29,786 bases of DNA from Christensenellaceae bacterium (GCA_045576035.1 JAZNFN010000102.1:1-29786); one strand, 5' to 3'. Positions 12,377 to 20,371 are shown, counted from the stretch's first letter. The notes: a model not told the origin generated them from the letters alone. Numbers and translations are program-made.

Positions 12377-13273
12377 TTACATTCCCGCAGCACTCTTATA
12401 TAAATATATTATGCTTTCGTAATAATCGTCAAGATAGATGGCAAGTTTTCCTTCGTCAAGAATATCTCTATAAGCAACCGACGGTTGAAGCGTGTCATAA
12501 TAACCGCACACACATCTTATAACGTCTTCATAATAGCCCATATCTACAAGTTGGTCTTTCGTAAACTCACCTGCACTTACGTCAAGATAACGTATCAATA
12601 AACTTGCTTGCGTTTGCTTAATGGTATTTTTATAGCGTTGTTCCTTTTCGTCAAGCCCGTTGTTGTAGATAAACACTTCACGGTTAAGAGTATCACGTTC
12701 TACACAAAGTTCTGCTACTTTTTTGCTTATTTCGTATTCGTGAACCTGTTGCATATACGTTCCACTCTGTGCTAGTTGTGCTAAAATTGCCTCTTTTTCC
12801 GCAGTAAGTTCTGCTATCTTTTGATTTTTAGTCTGCGTAATTTTAGCAATTTTTGAATTCTTACTGTCTTCAAGTTTTGCCGTTTTATCTATAACGATAT
12901 TTGAATTTATAAGCCCTGCTTTTATCGCTTGCTTTTCCACTTTTTCTACGCTTTCACTATAAAGCGCTTTGACCGTTTCAATTTCTAATAGAGCGTTTTG
13001 TTCAATCAAAGTAAGTTGAGCGTCTATTTCTTCTATTCGACTATTTAACTTCATCTTATATTCTTCAATTTCACGTTTTTGCCCTGCCGTAACAAGTGAG
13101 CGCGCCCTATTCATAATTTCTAAGTCTGTTTCAGGCGTGTATTCTAACCTTGTCAAGTCTAACGGTTGCAAACCAATTTCCTCAAACGAATCACGGCGTA
13201 TTCGATAATAGTAAAACAAGTCGTTAAGCGTCGTGTACATTTGCTCTTTTGTTGTTGGTAAATTAAATTGCAT
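12377..13273 (-). CDS. Hypothetical coiled-coil protein, last gene of the capsid module (possible internal/ejection protein)
   Basis: 298 aa, K/E/Q-rich heptad-like middle; starts 3 nt after the upstream stop; function inferred from position only. Confidence 0.45.
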   Translation of the reverse strand: MQFNLPTTKEQMYTTLNDLFYYYRIRRDSFEEIGLQPLDLTRLEYTPETDLEIMNRARSLVTAGQKREIEEYKMKLNSRIEEIDAQLTLIEQNALLEIETVKALYSESVEKVEKQAIKAGLINSNIVIDKTAKLEDSKNSKIAKITQTKNQKIAELTAEKEAILAQLAQSGTYMQQVHEYEISKKVAELCVERDTLNREVFIYNNGLDEKEQRYKNTIKQTQASLLIRYLDVSAGEFTKDQLVDMGYYEDVIRCVCGYYDTLQPSVAYRDILDEGKLAIYLDDYYESIIYLYKSAAGM

Positions 13274-13276
13274 ATA

Positions 13277-14521
13277 CTATTCCCCCGATACTCTATATTT
13301 TAATTTTAAGTCGCTTGCGTAAAAGTTTTTGTTTTCAGCACGCATTGATATTGAAAACGTATCCGAACACAAATTTAATGGTATTACGTTAAAGCCTTTT
13401 TTTAGCCATAAGTTTTTACTGCCAAACTGTCCCGTTAAAGTAATAGTTGCTTTTTCACTTAAATATATGCTCAGTTCAAGTAGCGATTTTTGGTATGGAA
13501 CGTTCATATTCAATTCTTCGCTTTCCCAAAGACAGTATATTATACTTTGGTCACGTTCAAGAATTTTGTAAATTTGATACGTCGAATTCAATAAATATCG
13601 CCCGTCTGCTAACATAATAACGTTTCTATCAATAAGCGTTTCCCTTTCACTTAACGCATCGTACATATAAATATACGTTTGTGCACCACCGCTAATGGTA
13701 ACTGCAACGGTATAAATATTGCCGTACGAACTTGCCTTGCCGACAACTTCAAACTGATTTTTACTTAAAAAGCCGTTGACAGACACCACGTTGTTTTTAT
13801 TAAAAGTATACGCCCCGTCTCTCTGCATAAAAACGATTGCACCTGATAGTGCGTGTACGCTGTTTTTAATTATGCCGTTTACAATTACAGGAACTTTCTT
13901 GAACTGAAACACCGTTTCATCATCGGCCGTCAAGGAAAATATCGCACTTTCACAAAAAACGTATAACACTCTGTCTAATACGCCAAGCCCAACTATGTCT
14001 CCGCACCCGTTTTCCACGCTTACAGTTCCGCTTAAATCCGAGTGCGAAAAGTCGGTAAAATTAAACGCATTGCCAAAACTTACCGTCTTACCTTTTGCGG
14101 TAACAACCCTACCGTTAAACACGGTTGCAAAATGCCCTAACGGCATATCGAAAAGTTCAGTTTCCCCTTCAAAATACGCACCGCTGTTATCAATAATAAG
14201 GGTCTTAATCGCACCGCCTTTTAAGGCTTCAACTAAAACAACGTCCTTACTTACGCCTTGTGCGATAATATTACTTGACGAAGTGTCAAAATCATAGCGA
14301 TATAAACTGCCGTCGTTTTTAAGCAAATAAAGTTTTCCGTTTAAGTCGAATATTTTAATAATATTTTCGACCGTTTTCCCCTTAAACAAAAAGCCGTACG
14401 TTGCGTTCAGTTCTTTTTCTGTTGACGTAATGTTATAAGAGCGTTTAGTAAGTTTACGAAAATCTTGGGCGTAAAAAACCTTAGGGGCGTTCGACTTCAT
14501 CGTCAAATAGTTTTTACGCAT
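13277..14521 (-). CDS. Putative tail nozzle/stabilisation protein (P22 gp10 / T7 gp12-like beta-propeller)
   Basis: Beta-rich repeats GHFATVFNGRVV, VSFGNAFNFTDF and GDIVGLGVLDRVLYVFCESAIFSL; follows the adaptor; TAATG overlap at 14521 (track start GTG 14530). Confidence 0.55.
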   Translation of the reverse strand: MRKNYLTMKSNAPKVFYAQDFRKLTKRSYNITSTEKELNATYGFLFKGKTVENIIKIFDLNGKLYLLKNDGSLYRYDFDTSSSNIIAQGVSKDVVLVEALKGGAIKTLIIDNSGAYFEGETELFDMPLGHFATVFNGRVVTAKGKTVSFGNAFNFTDFSHSDLSGTVSVENGCGDIVGLGVLDRVLYVFCESAIFSLTADDETVFQFKKVPVIVNGIIKNSVHALSGAIVFMQRDGAYTFNKNNVVSVNGFLSKNQFEVVGKASSYGNIYTVAVTISGGAQTYIYMYDALSERETLIDRNVIMLADGRYLLNSTYQIYKILERDQSIIYCLWESEELNMNVPYQKSLLELSIYLSEKATITLTGQFGSKNLWLKKGFNVIPLNLCSDTFSISMRAENKNFYASDLKLKYRVSGE

Positions 14522-18646: not shown

Positions 18647-18657
18647 CTTTAATCTCC

Positions 18658-18957
18658 TTAATTAATTTTTAATTGTGATAGGAGCTTTAACAACCTAATT
18701 TTTTCTTGCTCCAACTCCTCATCAGTCAAAAGTTCAACGTCCTTTTGCTTTTCATCAAGCAAAATTTTAAGTGCTGTCATATCGGGTGGTACGTTTTTTA
18801 TGGTAACTTTTTTCTTCAAAAGTTTTATTTCCCCCTCATCGCCACCAGAGTATTCTTCTATAACTTCGGTAGCGTCGTACCCAAGCGCCTTTTTTATGAG
18901 TGCACTTTCAAGGTCGGCCTTTGACACTTTTTTCTTTCTACTGCCTTTTTCTTTCAT
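18658..18957 (-). CDS. Terminase small-subunit-like protein (99 aa, apparently lacking the N-terminal HTH)
   Basis: ALIKKALGY...KKVTIKNVPPDMTALKILL matches the oligomerisation core of Firmicutes phage TerS-type proteins; overlaps the TerL end by 20 nt. Confidence 0.6.
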   Translation of the reverse strand: MKEKGSRKKKVSKADLESALIKKALGYDATEVIEEYSGGDEGEIKLLKKKVTIKNVPPDMTALKILLDEKQKDVELLTDEELEQEKIRLLKLLSQLKIN

Positions 18958-20371
18958 TCATAATCTTTCTAATCAGCCTCTCCTTGTCTTTTTGGATTTG
19001 GGTTTTTTCTTTCTTTGGCGGAAGATTTTCAGGCTTGGTCATTATGTAATAACGCATTTCGTCAAGACAGTGGTCGTCTTTTTTTACGGGGTTTTCACCG
19101 TCGCCCCAACGATAAGACTTTAATTCTTTTATAAGGTTTACGCAACTTTTAAAGATATAAATTTTAGGCTTGCCGTCATTTACTTTTAAATACTGTTTTA
19201 CACGCTGAATACCACTAAAAAGGTCTTTATTTACCTTGGGATTTACAGCAATATTAAAATCGTAAAAAAGTTCGGTTACGCTTTTTGAACTTGCCAAAGT
19301 CTTTTGGTTTGCCGCTGAGTCGATTAACGCTAAAAGTCTACCCTTGCTATCCCGTTTCCAACCGAGCGAAGCGCTTATTCGGTCTATGTTTTGTGCGTGA
19401 TACGAAACGTCTTTGCCCGCTTCAAACCACTCGGCAACAACGTAAACGTTTCCGTCATAGTCGACAGCGTACCAATGCGCTGACAAAGGGTTGTTTAGTC
19501 CTGGGTCGATTGATATTGTATCTTGCCAATCGGGTGGAACGTTAAACGGTTCTATAACGTGAACGTTTTCATCAAATTCGGGATACACTAAGCCCGCACT
19601 TGCCTTAAACCTACCGTAACGCCTACTTTCAAGTTGGTCTTCTGATAGTGATGCGGTAAGTGCGTCAACTTCACCTGTGTCAAGATAAGGATTATCCGCC
19701 CATTCCATAAACTCATACCACACTTGGTCAGAGTTTCCGCTGTTTAAATAAATTTCATCGTGGATAAAAGTAAGTCCTTTAAGCGGTGTCATCGTGCCGA
19801 AAATATCACCCTTTTTATCAAGAACACGCATTCGGCATTCATCGTAAATATCCTTGGGCGGTTCTTCGTCAAACCACACGAAGTCAAGCGAACTACCTTG
19901 AAACTTTTCTCTGCCTTGGTCGCAAGACTTAAAGCCGATAACAGACGTTCCGCCAAACACGTTTTTTATTCGTATTTGGTCTATTACGCCGTACTTTAAA
20001 CTGTCTTTTTTGCCAGCAAGCATAGTTACGTCTTCAATCCAACCTGGATTTAGGTATGAAAGAATTTTTGACTGCGCAACGTCCCTTTGAATTTGTTGTG
20101 AAAGTGAAACCACCCAACCGAAAACGTTATCCTTATTCGCTCTATAAGGGTGAACTCCTCGTGCCATATAAACGGCTTCTACTGCTCCGCACTCGGTCTT
20201 TCCGCTTCGGTTACCGCCAAACACCCATCTATTCTTTTTTTGGCATTTATGAAAAGCCACTTGCTTTTTGTGTATGAGCGTACCCGTATTATAATTTTTA
20301 AGCCTATCTTCACCGTTGCGACGCTTTATTTCGTTTTCAATTTTGACTATTCTTTCAATAAGTTCACGCAT
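18938..20371 (-). CDS. terL: Phage terminase large subunit
   Basis: Walker A FGGNRSGKT, Walker B DFVWFDEEP, coupling TMTP, nuclease ISIDPG and DDHCLDEMRY. Start ATG 20371 behind GGGAGG (track start 20407). Confidence 0.92.
   Translation of the reverse strand: MRELIERIVKIENEIKRRNGEDRLKNYNTGTLIHKKQVAFHKCQKKNRWVFGGNRSGKTECGAVEAVYMARGVHPYRANKDNVFGWVVSLSQQIQRDVAQSKILSYLNPGWIEDVTMLAGKKDSLKYGVIDQIRIKNVFGGTSVIGFKSCDQGREKFQGSSLDFVWFDEEPPKDIYDECRMRVLDKKGDIFGTMTPLKGLTFIHDEIYLNSGNSDQVWYEFMEWADNPYLDTGEVDALTASLSEDQLESRRYGRFKASAGLVYPEFDENVHVIEPFNVPPDWQDTISIDPGLNNPLSAHWYAVDYDGNVYVVAEWFEAGKDVSYHAQNIDRISASLGWKRDSKGRLLALIDSAANQKTLASSKSVTELFYDFNIAVNPKVNKDLFSGIQRVKQYLKVNDGKPKIYIFKSCVNLIKELKSYRWGDGENPVKKDDHCLDEMRYYIMTKPENLPPKKEKTQIQKDKERLIRKIMNERKRQ

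What the first reader, a model, noticed from the sequence alone, without database searches (positions are those of the whole stretch)
12377..20371. Stand-alone, intact phage head/short-tail operon among housekeeping genes: candidate gene transfer agent or domesticated capsid system in a Clostridia-like bacterium
Seen: eight same-strand ORFs (TerL, TerS-like, portal, scaffold, major capsid, adaptor-like, nozzle-like, coiled-coil) with no frameshifts, good SD sites and 0-20 nt gaps or overlaps, except the hairpin gap after the capsid gene. The block is only ~8 kb, bounded by ispG on one side and a lipoprotein/fakA on the other. There is no integrase, att repeat, repressor, replication, tape-measure or lysis gene, and by eye its composition and codon style look like the flanking core genes rather than the AT-rich 27.3-29.8 kb end. 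Established: decaying prophages usually keep an integrase or early genes and accumulate broken ORFs, whereas known GTAs (RcGTA, VSH-1, Dd1) are host-regulated structural clusters lacking replication functions. Inference: this is a vertically inherited particle that packages host DNA, or a capsid repurposed for another role.
Basis: partly seen in the sequence, partly recalled or inferred. Interest (0 to 1): 0.9.

Follow-up and report, generated by a model that had tools for sequence, protein, structure and literature searches.

The report
Domesticated GTA-like phage capsid operon
An eight-gene remnant of a short-tailed phage (DNA-packaging motor, capsid, neck and nozzle) has been inherited like a housekeeping gene and kept intact by selection in hundreds of uncultured gut Christensenellales-type species; a LexA (DNA-damage) box sits upstream of its likely activator gene, so it is most probably a host-owned gene-transfer-agent-like particle, not a prophage.

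Summary
Window 12377-20371 (minus strand) encodes TerL, a 99-aa TerS-like protein, portal, scaffold, a Podo/SU10-type major capsid protein, adaptor, a tail nozzle (fold match to P22 gp10 / T7 gp12) and a coiled-coil DUF7934 protein. There is no integrase, replication, fibre or lysis gene.

It is not a prophage:
- The capsid gene is single-copy and intact in 24/24 sampled species of the genus and in more than 547 species genomes.
- The cluster is followed by ispG-polC'-rimP-nusA in 35 loci.
- It has diverged as much as its host neighbours (p-distance 0.357 vs 0.354), and its tree largely mirrors theirs.
- dN/dS is 0.03-0.4.
- In other lineages the genes are intact but dispersed: TerL lies 40-53 kb away, or the MCP module, TerL and portal lie on three contigs.
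- Lineages with 0.8-1.1 Mb genomes keep it (7/7).

A sigma-70-region-4/DUF1492 activator-like gene, ancestrally next to TerL, carries a canonical LexA box in 41/47 loci.

Capsid and scaffold contigs occur in a bovine metatranscriptome.

The closest published system is FpGTA (Nat Commun 2026), which has a different capsid family. That paper saw GTA-like packaging in Christensenellales but named no genes.

Packaging and transfer of host DNA remain untested. This scan has noted the same element before in other genomes.

The parts
20399..20426 (-). Best sigma-70-like promoter site (TTTACA-16-TACAAT) in the 165-nt AT-rich spacer upstream of TerL
   Evidence: 10/12 match. The number of such sites in the region equals chance, so this is only a candidate. 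No LexA box lies here.
18938..20371 (-). Large terminase TerL (477 aa from the ATG at 20371)
   Evidence: PF03237 3.3e-12 and phrog_2 3.8e-32. 72-85% identical across the genus. dN/dS 0.03-0.07.
18658..18957 (-). 99-aa small-terminase-like protein, encoded downstream of TerL; it has no recognisable DNA-binding domain
   Evidence: phrog_309 8.8e-8, matching only profile positions 189-248 of 319. Conserved at about 99 aa in 67/69 loci. dN/dS 0.09-0.22.
16787..18646 (-). Portal protein
   Evidence: PF16510 6.7e-15 and phrog_156 1.3e-37. Intact in 69/69 spanning loci. dN/dS 0.05-0.09.
16355..16786 (-). Coiled-coil scaffolding protein (143 aa)
   Evidence: Position between portal and MCP; only coiled-coil Pfam noise. 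Conserved in 66/69 loci. dN/dS 0.2-0.5.
15157..16335 (-). Major capsid protein, Podo/SU10 type (HK97 fold class)
   Evidence: NF033394 1.6e-81, phrog_14242 4.3e-60, PF17236. Single copy and intact in 24/24 genus species. Contigs occur in a bovine metatranscriptome.
15102..15141 (-). Strong stem-loop directly after the capsid stop codon; probable partial terminator or attenuator that sets capsid-to-tail stoichiometry
   Evidence: dG -28.7, z -5.8. Conserved in 87% of relatives. RNA-library depth falls to 0 over 13672-15005, downstream of it.
14521..15075 (-). Head-to-tail adaptor (184 aa)
   Evidence: phrog_2377 'adaptor Ad1' 2.5e-4 (weak). Position between MCP and nozzle. Conserved in 67/69 loci.
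13277..14530 (-). Podovirus tail nozzle/hub (417 aa, beta-propeller-rich)
   Evidence: AF2 pLDDT 92, pTM 0.88. Foldseek hits: Pa223 tail 1.6e-16, P22 gp10 2e-13, Sf6 gp8, SU10, T7 gp12. Fast-evolving (20-30% identity, dN/dS 0.25-0.40) but present in 69/69 loci.
12377..13273 (-). DUF7934 coiled-coil protein (three 44-70-residue helices plus a small C-terminal helical domain); candidate needle/plug or ejection protein
   Evidence: PF25588 2.7e-17. AF2 pLDDT 91. Best fold matches are short helical-hairpin chains of the T7 tail complex (Z 11.2 and 10.9), below the level that is decisive for helical folds. dN/dS 0.07-0.20.

Best explanation
This is the main locus of a domesticated, vertically inherited phage-derived particle system of the gene-transfer-agent (GTA) kind. 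Proposed mechanism, with each step marked as shown or inferred:
1. A second locus (contig C133 in this genome) encodes a small sigma-70-region-4/DUF1492-type protein, of the class of phage late-operon activators. Its upstream region carries a LexA operator. (Motif shown; regulation inferred.)
2. DNA damage would remove LexA, the activator would be made, and it would switch on the TerL operon. (Inferred from ancestral adjacency.)
3. Portal, scaffold and capsid protein build a small procapsid. The conserved hairpin after the capsid gene lowers expression of the neck genes. (Hairpin shown; the RNA drop past it is consistent.)
4. TerL, with a short TerS that has no recognisable DNA-recognition domain, fills heads with DNA, probably host DNA. 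(Inferred.)
5. Adaptor, nozzle and the coiled-coil DUF7934 protein close the head as a podovirus-type stub. (Folds shown.)
6. Release and delivery use functions not encoded here. (Unknown.)
For: Phage origin and completeness of the head-neck set.

Host ownership:
- The MCP is single-copy and intact in 24/24 species of the genus and in 5/16 other families of the order. More than 547 species genomes encode a relative, all gut Clostridia/Christensenellaceae-labelled MAGs among the 80 listed.
- All eight positions are conserved; 57/69 spanning loci are fully intact, and portal, MCP and nozzle are intact in 69/69.
- The downstream neighbours are ispG-polC'-rimP-nusA in 35 loci, and flanks are housekeeping genes with no integrase.
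- Divergence equals that of host neighbours (0.357 vs 0.354), with Mantel r 0.72 (0/2000 permutations). 15/25 bipartitions are shared, against 0.24 expected by chance; 11/14 strongly supported cluster clades recur in the host tree.
- dN/dS is 0.03-0.4 for all eight genes, and dS equals that of the flanking genes in the closest pair.
- Codon usage is host-like.

Not a mobile unit: in a genus with 0.8-1.0 Mb genomes, TerL (with the regulator gene) sits 40-53 kb from the other genes. In genus g101 the MCP module, TerL and portal are on three contigs. All are intact.

Regulation: the c13 family matches Sigma70_r4_2 (1.3e-9) and DUF1492 (1.9e-7). It lies directly upstream of TerL in 26 distant loci and stays in the genome when unlinked (23/24). 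A GAAC-N4-GTTC box lies upstream of c13 in 41/47 loci. 29 of these are perfect, and in 12 of the 20 genus genomes scanned it is the canonical 14-mer CGAACAAATGTTCG. The background for a perfect box is 0.008 per region, and 0/77 TerL upstream regions have one. The genome encodes LexA, whose own promoter carries an AAAC-N4-GTTT palindrome.

Expression: scaffold/MCP contigs occur in a bovine metatranscriptome at depths like the neighbouring housekeeping genes.

Independent literature: GTA-like packaging of about 6.3-kb random host DNA was observed for Christensenellales genera (QANA01, HGM11616) in human faecal VLPs, with no gene cluster identified (PMC12946183).
Against: - No experiment or read data here shows that particles form, that they hold random host DNA, or that DNA is transferred.
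- No receptor-binding fibre, holin or endolysin was found in the cluster, or in the genome with the queries used. The genome is 93% complete in 201 contigs.
- The AU test rejects identical topologies for the cluster and its host neighbours (p = 4e-15), so some recombination or transfer between species has occurred. The host markers used are physically linked to the cluster.
- The link from c13 to the TerL operon rests on adjacency in relatives and on family resemblance only.
- RNA-library contigs could in principle include DNA carry-over, although the uneven coverage argues against that.
- I could not establish that QANA01 or HGM11616 carry this cluster.
Confidence: 0.68

Rival explanations
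1. A domesticated particle with a role other than gene transfer. It would still be host-owned and SOS-induced, but would act as a killing particle (as PBSX does), as a route for DNA disposal or eDNA release, or as a decoy. Any DNA packaged would be incidental.
For: No fibre/RBP or lysis gene was found. PBSX is a precedent for an SOS-induced, DNA-packaging particle that does not deliver DNA; the FpGTA paper discusses this. The nozzle evolves fast (dN/dS 0.25-0.40), as surface-interaction parts do.
Against: TerL, TerS-like and portal are among the most constrained genes of the cluster (dN/dS 0.03-0.22). So DNA packaging itself is under selection. A podovirus stub has no contractile or puncturing device known to kill. 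Retention in 0.8-1.1 Mb genomes (7/7) points to a benefit to the carrier lineage.
Confidence: 0.2
2. A capsid-forming phage satellite (cf-PICI-like). It would make its own small heads, hijack a helper phage's tails and lysis functions, and spread horizontally.
For: It has a head-and-packaging gene set without tail fibres or lysis genes. A short TerS could redirect packaging. The cluster and host trees are not identical (AU test).
Against: There is no integrase, att site, replication, repressor or helper-interference gene in 100 examined loci. The cluster sits at one core-genome site and has diverged as much as its host neighbours. Its genes are dispersed over 40-53 kb or over separate contigs in some lineages, which is incompatible with packaging of a satellite genome. 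It carries its own podovirus adaptor and nozzle, so it does not need a helper's tail.
Confidence: 0.04
3. An inert or decaying prophage remnant that merely has not yet been erased.
For: It is a fragment of a phage genome. Related full phages exist: L223 has tail, endolysin and holin genes after the nozzle.
Against: Synonymous sites are saturated between most species pairs, yet all eight reading frames stay open, with dN/dS 0.03-0.4. The MCP is present in 24/24 sampled genus species, and the cluster in genomes reduced to 0.8 Mb. The hairpin and the LexA-box regulator are conserved. Contigs occur in an RNA library.
Confidence: 0.02

Closest known systems
FpGTA of Faecalibacterium prausnitzii (Borodovich et al., Nat Commun 2026, PMC12946183)
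   Same: Both are found in gut Clostridia. Both have an 8-10 gene operon with a TerS lacking a DNA-binding domain, TerL, portal, scaffold-position gene, capsid, a P22-gp10-like nozzle (the same PDB homologue, 8eap) and a terminal helical protein. Neither has replication or integration genes. Both are near-ubiquitous in the host genus, and both imply podovirus-like morphology.
   Different: FpGTA's capsid is annotated as N4-gp56 family. This one is NF033394/SU10-type and has no match to TIGR04387. The two capsid families occupy almost non-overlapping sets of Clostridia families. Gene order differs: TerL comes before TerS here, and a coiled-coil scaffold takes the place of the Prp-like protein. 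No counterpart of FpGTA operon II (fibres, RBP, holin, endolysin) was found. I did not align FpGTA proteins directly, because no sequences were available to me.
RcGTA-type alphaproteobacterial GTAs (Rhodobacter, Caulobacter, Bartonella)
   Same: A domesticated head-tail cluster that is vertically inherited and under purifying selection. A short TerS without DNA specificity. A dedicated activator encoded away from the structural cluster. Host global regulators in control.
   Different: Those are siphovirus-like with tail tube and tape-measure genes (about 15 kb or more) and have unrelated capsid and terminase lineages. Their packaging and transfer are demonstrated experimentally; here they are not.
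PBSX / defective prophage-like particles of Bacillus subtilis
   Same: A Gram-positive, SOS-induced, host-owned particle that packages host DNA. It uses a sigma-like or late-activator switch.
   Different: PBSX is a 28-kb myovirus-like element with its own lysis and tail genes, and it acts as a killing particle. This element is an 8-kb podovirus-type head-neck set.
Capsid-forming PICIs (cf-PICI satellites)
   Same: Small head-and-packaging modules without tails or lysis genes.
   Different: cf-PICIs have integrase, att sites, replication and regulation modules. They are strain-variable and use helper siphovirus tails. None of this applies here.
SU10/P22-type podoviruses and the IMG/VR contig L223
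   Same: The same capsid family (PF17236/NF033394), portal family and adaptor-nozzle architecture. They are probably the kind of ancestor this element came from.
   Different: Real phages carry tail fibres or minor tail proteins, an endolysin and a holin after the nozzle, and have 35-45-kb genomes. Capsid identity to known or putative phages is only 26-38%.

Membership tests
Gene transfer agent (GTA; domesticated phage-derived particle) | Phage-derived structural and packaging genes without replication, integration or lysogeny-control genes | tested here: met
   eight head-neck genes, housekeeping flanks in about 100 loci, and no integrase nearby.
Gene transfer agent (GTA; domesticated phage-derived particle) | Vertical inheritance with the host lineage at a stable chromosomal position | tested here: met
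   24/24 genus species. ispG-polC'-rimP-nusA follows the cluster in 35 loci. Mantel r 0.72; 15/25 shared bipartitions against 0.24 by chance. The AU test shows congruence is not perfect, and the markers are linked.
Gene transfer agent (GTA; domesticated phage-derived particle) | Long-term purifying selection on the structural genes | tested here: met
   dN/dS 0.03-0.40 in seven species pairs. 57/69 loci have all eight genes intact.
Gene transfer agent (GTA; domesticated phage-derived particle) | Genes may be dispersed over several loci, so the element cannot transfer itself as a unit | tested here: met
   The regulator locus is on another contig in this genome. In relatives TerL is 40-53 kb away, or the MCP module, TerL and portal are on three contigs.
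Gene transfer agent (GTA; domesticated phage-derived particle) | Expression under host regulatory control | tested here: inconclusive
   A conserved LexA operator lies upstream of the sigma-r4/DUF1492-like gene in 41/47 loci, and LexA is present. Binding of LexA, and the link from this gene to the operon, are inferred.
Gene transfer agent (GTA; domesticated phage-derived particle) | Particles package quasi-random host DNA of a discrete size, without enrichment of the encoding locus | not testable with these tools
   Only contig-level public runs were available. The literature reports such packaging (~6.3 kb) for Christensenellales genera, but I could not link those genomes to this cluster.
Gene transfer agent (GTA; domesticated phage-derived particle) | Release (lysis) and delivery of DNA to recipient cells | tested here: not met
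   No holin (phrog_199) and no homologue of a related phage's tail or lysis genes was found in the 93%-complete genome. Other lysis families were not searched. Delivery is not testable.
FpGTA family (Faecalibacterium GTA) | [quoted passage not shown] | tested here: not met
   The window's MCP matches NF033394 (274 bits) and has no TIGR04387 match at E <= 0.01. TIGR04387 was found in 0/13 sampled genomes of this order, against 14/14, 11/12, 7/7 and 12/13 in four other families.
FpGTA family (Faecalibacterium GTA) | Operon I order TerS-TerL-portal-Prp-like-MCP...nozzle...TolA-like, plus operon II (fibres, RBP, holin, endolysin) | tested here: not met
   Here the order is TerL-TerS-portal-scaffold-MCP-adaptor-nozzle-DUF7934. 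No operon II equivalent was found. I did not make a direct sequence comparison with FpGTA proteins.
cf-PICI / phage satellite | Integrase with att sites, replication module, repressor or helper-sensing genes, and strain-variable presence | tested here: not met
Intact temperate podovirus prophage | Complete genome with integration, replication, tail fibre and lysis modules | tested here: not met
   The block is 8.0 kb and bounded by core genes. Contrast L223, which has tail, endolysin and holin genes.
P22/SU10/T7-type podovirus tail machine | Portal-adaptor-nozzle stack | tested here: met
   Portal families; adaptor phrog_2377 (weak); nozzle fold E 1.6e-16 to 1e-10 against nine or more podovirus nozzles.
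P22/SU10/T7-type podovirus tail machine | Tailspikes or fibres attached to the adaptor/nozzle | tested here: not met
   None lies in the cluster or in its conserved neighbours. The SH3-domain proteins c9 and c21 at the regulator locus are of unknown function.

The most novel reading that the evidence does not exclude
This operon, together with its LexA-controlled sigma-like activator locus, is the so far unidentified machinery behind the GTA-like packaging of about 6-kb random host DNA reported for Christensenellales in human stool. It would be an ancient, order-wide, SOS-triggered gene transfer agent that arose independently of the Faecalibacterium FpGTA (different capsid family). It would be important enough to be retained in genomes reduced to 0.8 Mb, and gut Clostridia would be partitioned between at least two independently domesticated podovirus-type GTA lineages.
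Probability: 0.45. Interest if true: 0.8.

Novelty: new member of a known kind. Interest (0 to 1): 0.7.

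Why it matters
GTAs were long known almost only from Alphaproteobacteria. The first gut and podovirus-like example, FpGTA, was published in 2026. 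That study saw GTA-like DNA packaging in Christensenellales but could not name the genes. This cluster is a concrete, testable candidate for those genes:
- It occurs in more than 500 species of an abundant, mostly uncultured gut lineage.
- Its regulatory input is predictable (LexA/SOS acting through a small sigma-like activator).
- It has a minimal parts list of eight structural genes.

If it is functional, capsid-mediated exchange of host DNA would be a built-in, damage-induced trait of these bacteria. That bears on how gut commensals with very small genomes recombine, repair and spread genes.

The dispersed but intact gene sets in some lineages give unusually clean genomic evidence of domestication.

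Tried and rejected
1. **Known phages.** tblastn of the MCP against 50,697 phage records gave only 26-31% identity, to actinobacterial phages. No close active phage exists there.
2. **IMG/VR.** Close hits are short contigs carrying the same cluster, probably host fragments called viral. They are not evidence of a free phage.
3. **End of contig C133.** I tested whether it overlaps the window's TerL upstream region, which would indicate an assembly break. There is no overlap.
4. **p204.** The divergent neighbour of TerL in this window is not a homologue of c9, the usual divergent neighbour in relatives. It has no Pfam, PHROG or NCBIfam match. It is probably not part of the system.
5. **LexA box upstream of TerL.** None in the window, and 0/77 in relatives. 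SOS input, if real, goes through c13.
6. **recA as a second positive control for the LexA motif.** Uninformative: recA sits directly behind another gene.
7. **DUF7934 fold search.** Only generic long-helix matches. The T7 tail-complex chains at Z about 11 are below the level that is meaningful for helical proteins. The tool does not name those chains.
8. **c21 and c9.** They show only weak SH3_3 domains and no PHROG hit; the Atlas neighbours of c21 are unnamed SH3 proteins.
9. **Comparison with an N4-gp56-type cluster from a genus with 12/12 presence.** Gene order differs, and TerL and portal are only 20-30% identical. That genus has about 41% GC, so it is not Faecalibacterium and cannot stand in for FpGTA itself.
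10. **Placing QANA01/HGM11616.** I could not place them relative to this clade.
11. **First integrity count.** My ORF-clustering count (42/69) was an undercount caused by antisense ORFs and split families. I replaced it with an HSP-based count.
12. **Complex prediction.** I did not use it, because no binding claim is made.

Full report
**1. What is in the sequence**

Window 12377-20371 holds eight co-directional minus-strand ORFs.

| Gene | Coordinates | Size | Key matches |
|---|---|---|---|
| TerL | 18938-20371 | 477 aa | PF03237; phrog_2 3.8e-32 |
| TerS-like | 18658-18957 | 99 aa | phrog_309 8.8e-8, only profile positions 189-248 of 319 |
| Portal | 16787-18646 | 619 aa | P22_portal 6.7e-15; phrog_156 1.3e-37 |
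| Scaffold | 16355-16786 | 143 aa | coiled coil only |
| MCP | 15157-16335 | 392 aa | phrog_14242 4.3e-60; SU10_MCP; NCBIfam NF033394 'capsid_maj_Podo' 274 bits |
| Adaptor | 14521-15075 | 184 aa | phrog_2377, weak |
| 417-aa protein | 13277-14530 | 417 aa | weak phrog_511 / phrog_578 |
| DUF7934 protein | 12377-13273 | 298 aa | PF25588 2.7e-17 |

- The TerL start is the ATG at 20371, preceded by GGAGG, and orthologues align from that residue.
- Intergenic distances run from -20 to +19 nt, except for the 81 nt after the capsid gene.
- That gap holds a stem-loop (dG -28.7 kcal/mol, z = -5.8, 0 of 200 shuffles as stable).
- The flanks are ispG and a polC-slot exonuclease gene on one side, and a 204-aa ORF plus fakA on the other.
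- Codon usage of the cluster correlates with the window's housekeeping genes at r = 0.92. Two halves of the host set correlate at 0.94. The AT-rich end correlates with the cluster at only 0.67.
- A DNA run from another sample yields a 10.2-kb contig across polC'-ispG-cluster and a second contig across TerL-p204-fakA at about 98.5% identity, so the arrangement is real.

**2. The two unexplained downstream proteins**

I built alignments of 63 and 70 orthologues and used them for AlphaFold2.

- *The 417-aa protein.* It folds with pLDDT 92 and pTM 0.88 into an all-beta structure. The best PDB matches are the tail nozzle/hub proteins of podoviruses: Pa223 (E 1.6e-16), GP4, VP1, P22 gp10 (8eap, 2e-13), Pam1, Sf6 gp8, SU10 and T7 gp12. 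It is the nozzle.
- *DUF7934.* It folds (pLDDT 91) as three very long helices (residues 50-119, 125-168 and 170-233) plus a small helical C-terminal domain. The best structural matches are short helical-hairpin chains in T7 tail complexes (7ey7_A Z 11.2; 8e4g_a Z 10.9). The tool's own guidance is that Z below about 13 is not decisive for helical folds.
- I treat DUF7934 as a candidate needle/plug or ejection protein, unproven.

The gene set is therefore a complete podovirus head plus portal-adaptor-nozzle stub. It has no fibre, lysis, replication or integration function.

**3. Distribution and context**

- The MCP is present once, with no internal stops, in 24 of 24 sampled species of the window's genus (56-74% identity) and in 5 of 16 other families of the order.
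- A scan of one genome per GTDB species found at least 547 genomes encoding a relative. Most of the 80 listed are gut MAGs labelled Christensenellaceae, Clostridia or Clostridiales, from sheep, goat, buffalo, deer, chicken and human. They include Ca. Scatosoma, Ca. Heteroclostridium, Ca. Fimimonas and 'Subdoligranulum sp. CAG:314'.
- Across 100 loci all eight gene positions recur.
- Of 69 loci whose contig spans the whole block, 57 have all eight genes at 80% or more single-HSP coverage without stops. Portal, MCP and nozzle are intact in 69/69.
- Downstream, 35 loci continue with ispG, the polC-slot gene, rimP and nusA.
- Upstream neighbours vary but are housekeeping genes: thyA, folA, a MatE transporter, gyrB/gyrA.
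- No integrase occurs in any flank. The window's genome has only two tyrosine recombinases, on other contigs.

**4. Tests of vertical inheritance and selection**

I used 28 taxa that have both the cluster and the adjacent ispG and polC' genes.

- Concatenated TerL+portal+MCP has a mean p-distance of 0.357, against 0.354 for ispG+polC'.
- The two distance matrices correlate (Mantel r = 0.72; 0 of 2000 permutations as high).
- The ML trees share 15 of 25 bipartitions. Label permutation gives a mean of 0.24 and a maximum of 4.
- 11 of 14 strongly supported cluster clades are in the host tree, and 8 of 9 the other way round. There is one strong conflict, inside a shallow triplet.
- The AU test rejects identical topology (p = 4e-15 and 8e-4). 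Inheritance is therefore predominantly vertical but not purely so. The host markers are also linked to the cluster, which limits the test.

dN/dS in seven species pairs:

| Gene | dN/dS |
|---|---|
| TerL | 0.03-0.07 |
| Portal | 0.05-0.09 |
| MCP | 0.07-0.16 |
| DUF7934 | 0.07-0.20 |
| TerS-like | 0.09-0.22 |
| Adaptor | 0.11-0.32, plus one noisy value of 1.04 in the closest pair |
| Scaffold | 0.21-0.49 |
| Nozzle | 0.25-0.40 |
| ispG, polC', rimP, nusA (host) | 0.03-0.15 |

In the closest pair, dS of the cluster genes (0.06-0.20) matches that of the flanking genes (0.15-0.27).

**5. Dispersal of the genes**

This is the strongest argument against any self-mobilising element. I ran an even draw of 400 genomes from the class.

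- The capsid is present in every sampled member of several lineages: f1 3/4, f18 2/2, and f19 7/7, whose genomes are only 0.8-1.1 Mb.
- It is also present in eight sampled genomes of a genus (g101) in another order.
- The big Clostridia families have no hits.
- In the tiny-genome genus, TerS-portal-scaffold-MCP-adaptor-nozzle stay together, but TerL lies 40-53 kb away on the same contig. It is intact there and 63-66% identical.
- In g101 the MCP module, TerL and portal lie on three different contigs, all intact.

Genes that are scattered yet all conserved can only be maintained by selection on the host.

**6. A second locus and a regulatory input**

- In 26 of the more distant loci a gene of about 146-170 aa (c13) lies just upstream of TerL. 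It is separated from TerL only by a divergent gene of about 250 aa (c9), and is preceded by a divergent gene of about 860 aa (c21).
- In the window's genome these three genes are together on the 4.2-kb contig C133. This is not next to TerL: the window extends 9.4 kb beyond TerL, and its junction is confirmed by an independent sample.
- c13 is single-copy in 23/24 genus genomes. It is either adjacent to TerL or 13-63 kb away on the same contig and strand.
- In the tiny-genome genus, c13-c9-TerL moved as one unit.
- Members of the c13 family match Sigma70_r4_2 (best 1.3e-9, 6 members) and DUF1492 (best 1.9e-7, 8 members). A profile of the family hits region 4 of SigF and ECF sigma factors in the PDB. 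From my own knowledge, this is the class of small phage late-gene activators that sit upstream of terminase genes (RinA/ArpU type).

Following that lead, I tested for LexA operators.

- A GAAC-N4-GTTC box lies within 250 nt upstream of c13 in 21/27 loci, and 17 of these are perfect.
- It is also present in 20/20 further genus genomes. Twelve of these have the perfect 14-mer CGAACAAATGTTCG, and the rest differ by one base.
- The background for a perfect box is 0.008 per region of that size. None of 77 TerL upstream regions has one.
- The window's genome has CAAACAAATGTTCG at C133:2761-2774, next to a TTGACT...TATAGT promoter-like site.
- The genome encodes LexA. Its own lexA promoter carries an AAAC-GTTT-GTTT palindrome over the -35, so the AAAC half-site is used in this organism.
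- LexA binding, and activation of the operon by c13, are inferred and not shown.
- c9 and c21 have weak SH3_3 (wall-binding-type) domains and no other recognisable feature.

**7. Expression**

- In a bovine metatranscriptome, contigs 97-99.7% identical to the window cover the scaffold/MCP region (15148-15605 and 16004-16648; depth 5-11.5). These depths are similar to polC', ispG and the phosphoglucomutase gene.
- Depth is zero over 13672-15005, downstream of the hairpin, and also over 18341-19007.
- The unevenness argues for RNA and against DNA carry-over. It fits the hairpin acting as an attenuator.
- The hairpin is conserved: the 70 nt after the MCP stop fold at a median of -22.7 kcal/mol in 87 loci, against -13.2 for in-gene controls.
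- This is contig-level evidence and is only suggestive.

**8. Relation to real phages**

- The best capsid matches among 50,697 deposited phages are 26-31% identical (Arthrobacter, Microbacterium and Cellulosimicrobium phages).
- In IMG/VR, contigs with close copies are short and carry only the same cluster, often with c13 and c9 upstream.
- Contigs of 23-45 kb have copies at only about 36-46% identity.
- One of them (L223) continues after the nozzle with minor tail proteins, an endolysin and a holin. It is a genuine phage, with exactly the functions this cluster lacks.
- None of those proteins has a detectable homologue in the window's genome, nor does the holin family phrog_199. The genome is 93% complete and I did not search other lysis families.

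**9. Comparison with what is known**

- The closest published system is FpGTA of Faecalibacterium prausnitzii (PMC12946183).
  - Operon I is 10.5 kb: TerS without a DNA-binding domain, TerL, portal, a Prp-like protein, an N4-gp56-family capsid, a P22-gp10-like nozzle and an abundant TolA-like protein.
  - Operon II lies 125 kb away and holds fibres, a receptor-binding protein, a holin and an endolysin.
  - The particles are capsids of about 40 nm that hold 8.4-8.9 kb of random host DNA.
- The same paper reports GTA-like packaging for Christensenellales (QANA01, reads of about 6.3 kb; HGM11616) without identifying genes.
- No other paper in the searchable library links Christensenellales and GTAs.
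- The present element works like FpGTA on paper but is not a member of that family by the tests I could run:
  - Its capsid has no match to the N4-gp56 model.
  - Across the same 400 genomes the N4-gp56 family is found in 75, including 14/14, 11/12, 7/7 and 12/13 of four large families, but in none of the 13 sampled genomes of this order.
  - An N4-type locus from a genus with 12/12 presence has a different gene order, and its TerL and portal are only 20-30% identical to these.
- That genus has about 41% GC and so is not Faecalibacterium. I did not make a direct alignment with FpGTA proteins.

**10. Verdict**

Its interpretation, a vertically inherited domesticated particle system that is a GTA candidate, is supported by the tests it proposed.
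- *Shown:* phage origin, completeness of the head-neck set, host-like inheritance, strong purifying selection, dispersal in some lineages, a conserved LexA-box/sigma-like regulator locus, and presence in an RNA library.
- *Inferred:* SOS induction through c13, packaging of host DNA, release and delivery.
- The kind of system is known (GTAs; FpGTA as a gut podovirus-type example). This is a new member with a different capsid lineage and a very wide host clade.
- Earlier notes of this scan reached the same reading on other genomes. They are unchecked AI notes and I did not count them as evidence.

Noticed in passing
window 9775-11301 (-): A 508-aa protein with an OB fold and an RNase_T-type exonuclease domain sits in the slot where Firmicutes have polC, between ispG and (in relatives) rimP-nusA. 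It is conserved at 58-80% identity in 32 loci.
   Followed up: partly
own genome contig C133 (L113: 33-2486 -, 2761-2774, 2873-3310 +, 3434-4072 -): This is the system's second locus. It holds an 818-aa SH3_3-domain protein (c21), a LexA-like box (CAAACAAATGTTCG), a sigma-70-r4/DUF1492-like gene (c13) and a 213-aa SH3_3 protein with a signal-peptide-like N-terminus (c9). The trio stays together in all 20 genus genomes checked. It moved together with TerL in the 0.8-1.0 Mb genomes. What c9 and c21 do is unknown.
   Followed up: partly
L131 8035-9201 and 9219-10361 (G388); also IMG/VR loci L197, L198, L199, L205: Tandem duplication of the capsid gene (two intact copies, about 50% identical to the query family) in some lineages. 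This suggests a two-MCP capsid, or subfunctionalisation.
   Followed up: no
L126-L133 and many IMG/VR loci, e.g. L126 10682-11041: Outside this genus there is an extra gene of about 85-120 aa (c25) between the capsid gene and the adaptor. It is absent from the window's cluster. It might be a decoration or head-completion protein.
   Followed up: no
class-wide sample, (e.g. L262, L263, L264): N4-gp56-family capsid genes are near-universal in several large Clostridia families (14/14, 11/12, 7/7, 12/13), often in two copies per genome. They are absent from the sampled genomes of this order. This looks like a second, complementary set of possibly domesticated capsid clusters.
   Followed up: partly
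window 27277-29784: The AT-rich end (GC 0.31-0.33, GC3 0.27) has codon usage unlike both the host genes and the cluster (RSCU r 0.67). It encodes a 565-aa YgjV-domain membrane protein and may be recently acquired DNA.
   Followed up: no
own genome C30:6203, C146:2076, C162:2613: The identical 16-mer ATGAACAGACGTTCTA, which contains a perfect GAAC-N4-GTTC box, occurs on three contigs. These could be copies of a repeat or mobile element, or three SOS-regulated promoters.
   Followed up: no
L079 (JAZOMV010000039.1) and L088, L091, L106: At these loci TerL is missing or reduced, although the rest of the cluster is intact. By analogy with genus g21, TerL may have been relocated, but I did not check this in those genomes.
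   Followed up: no
window 26410-27003 (+): A 197-aa SLT-domain lytic transglycosylase with a weak Phage_lysozyme2 match lies 6 kb from the cluster. It was not seen next to the cluster in relatives, so it is probably unrelated, but it is the only wall-degrading enzyme noticed near the locus.
   Followed up: no
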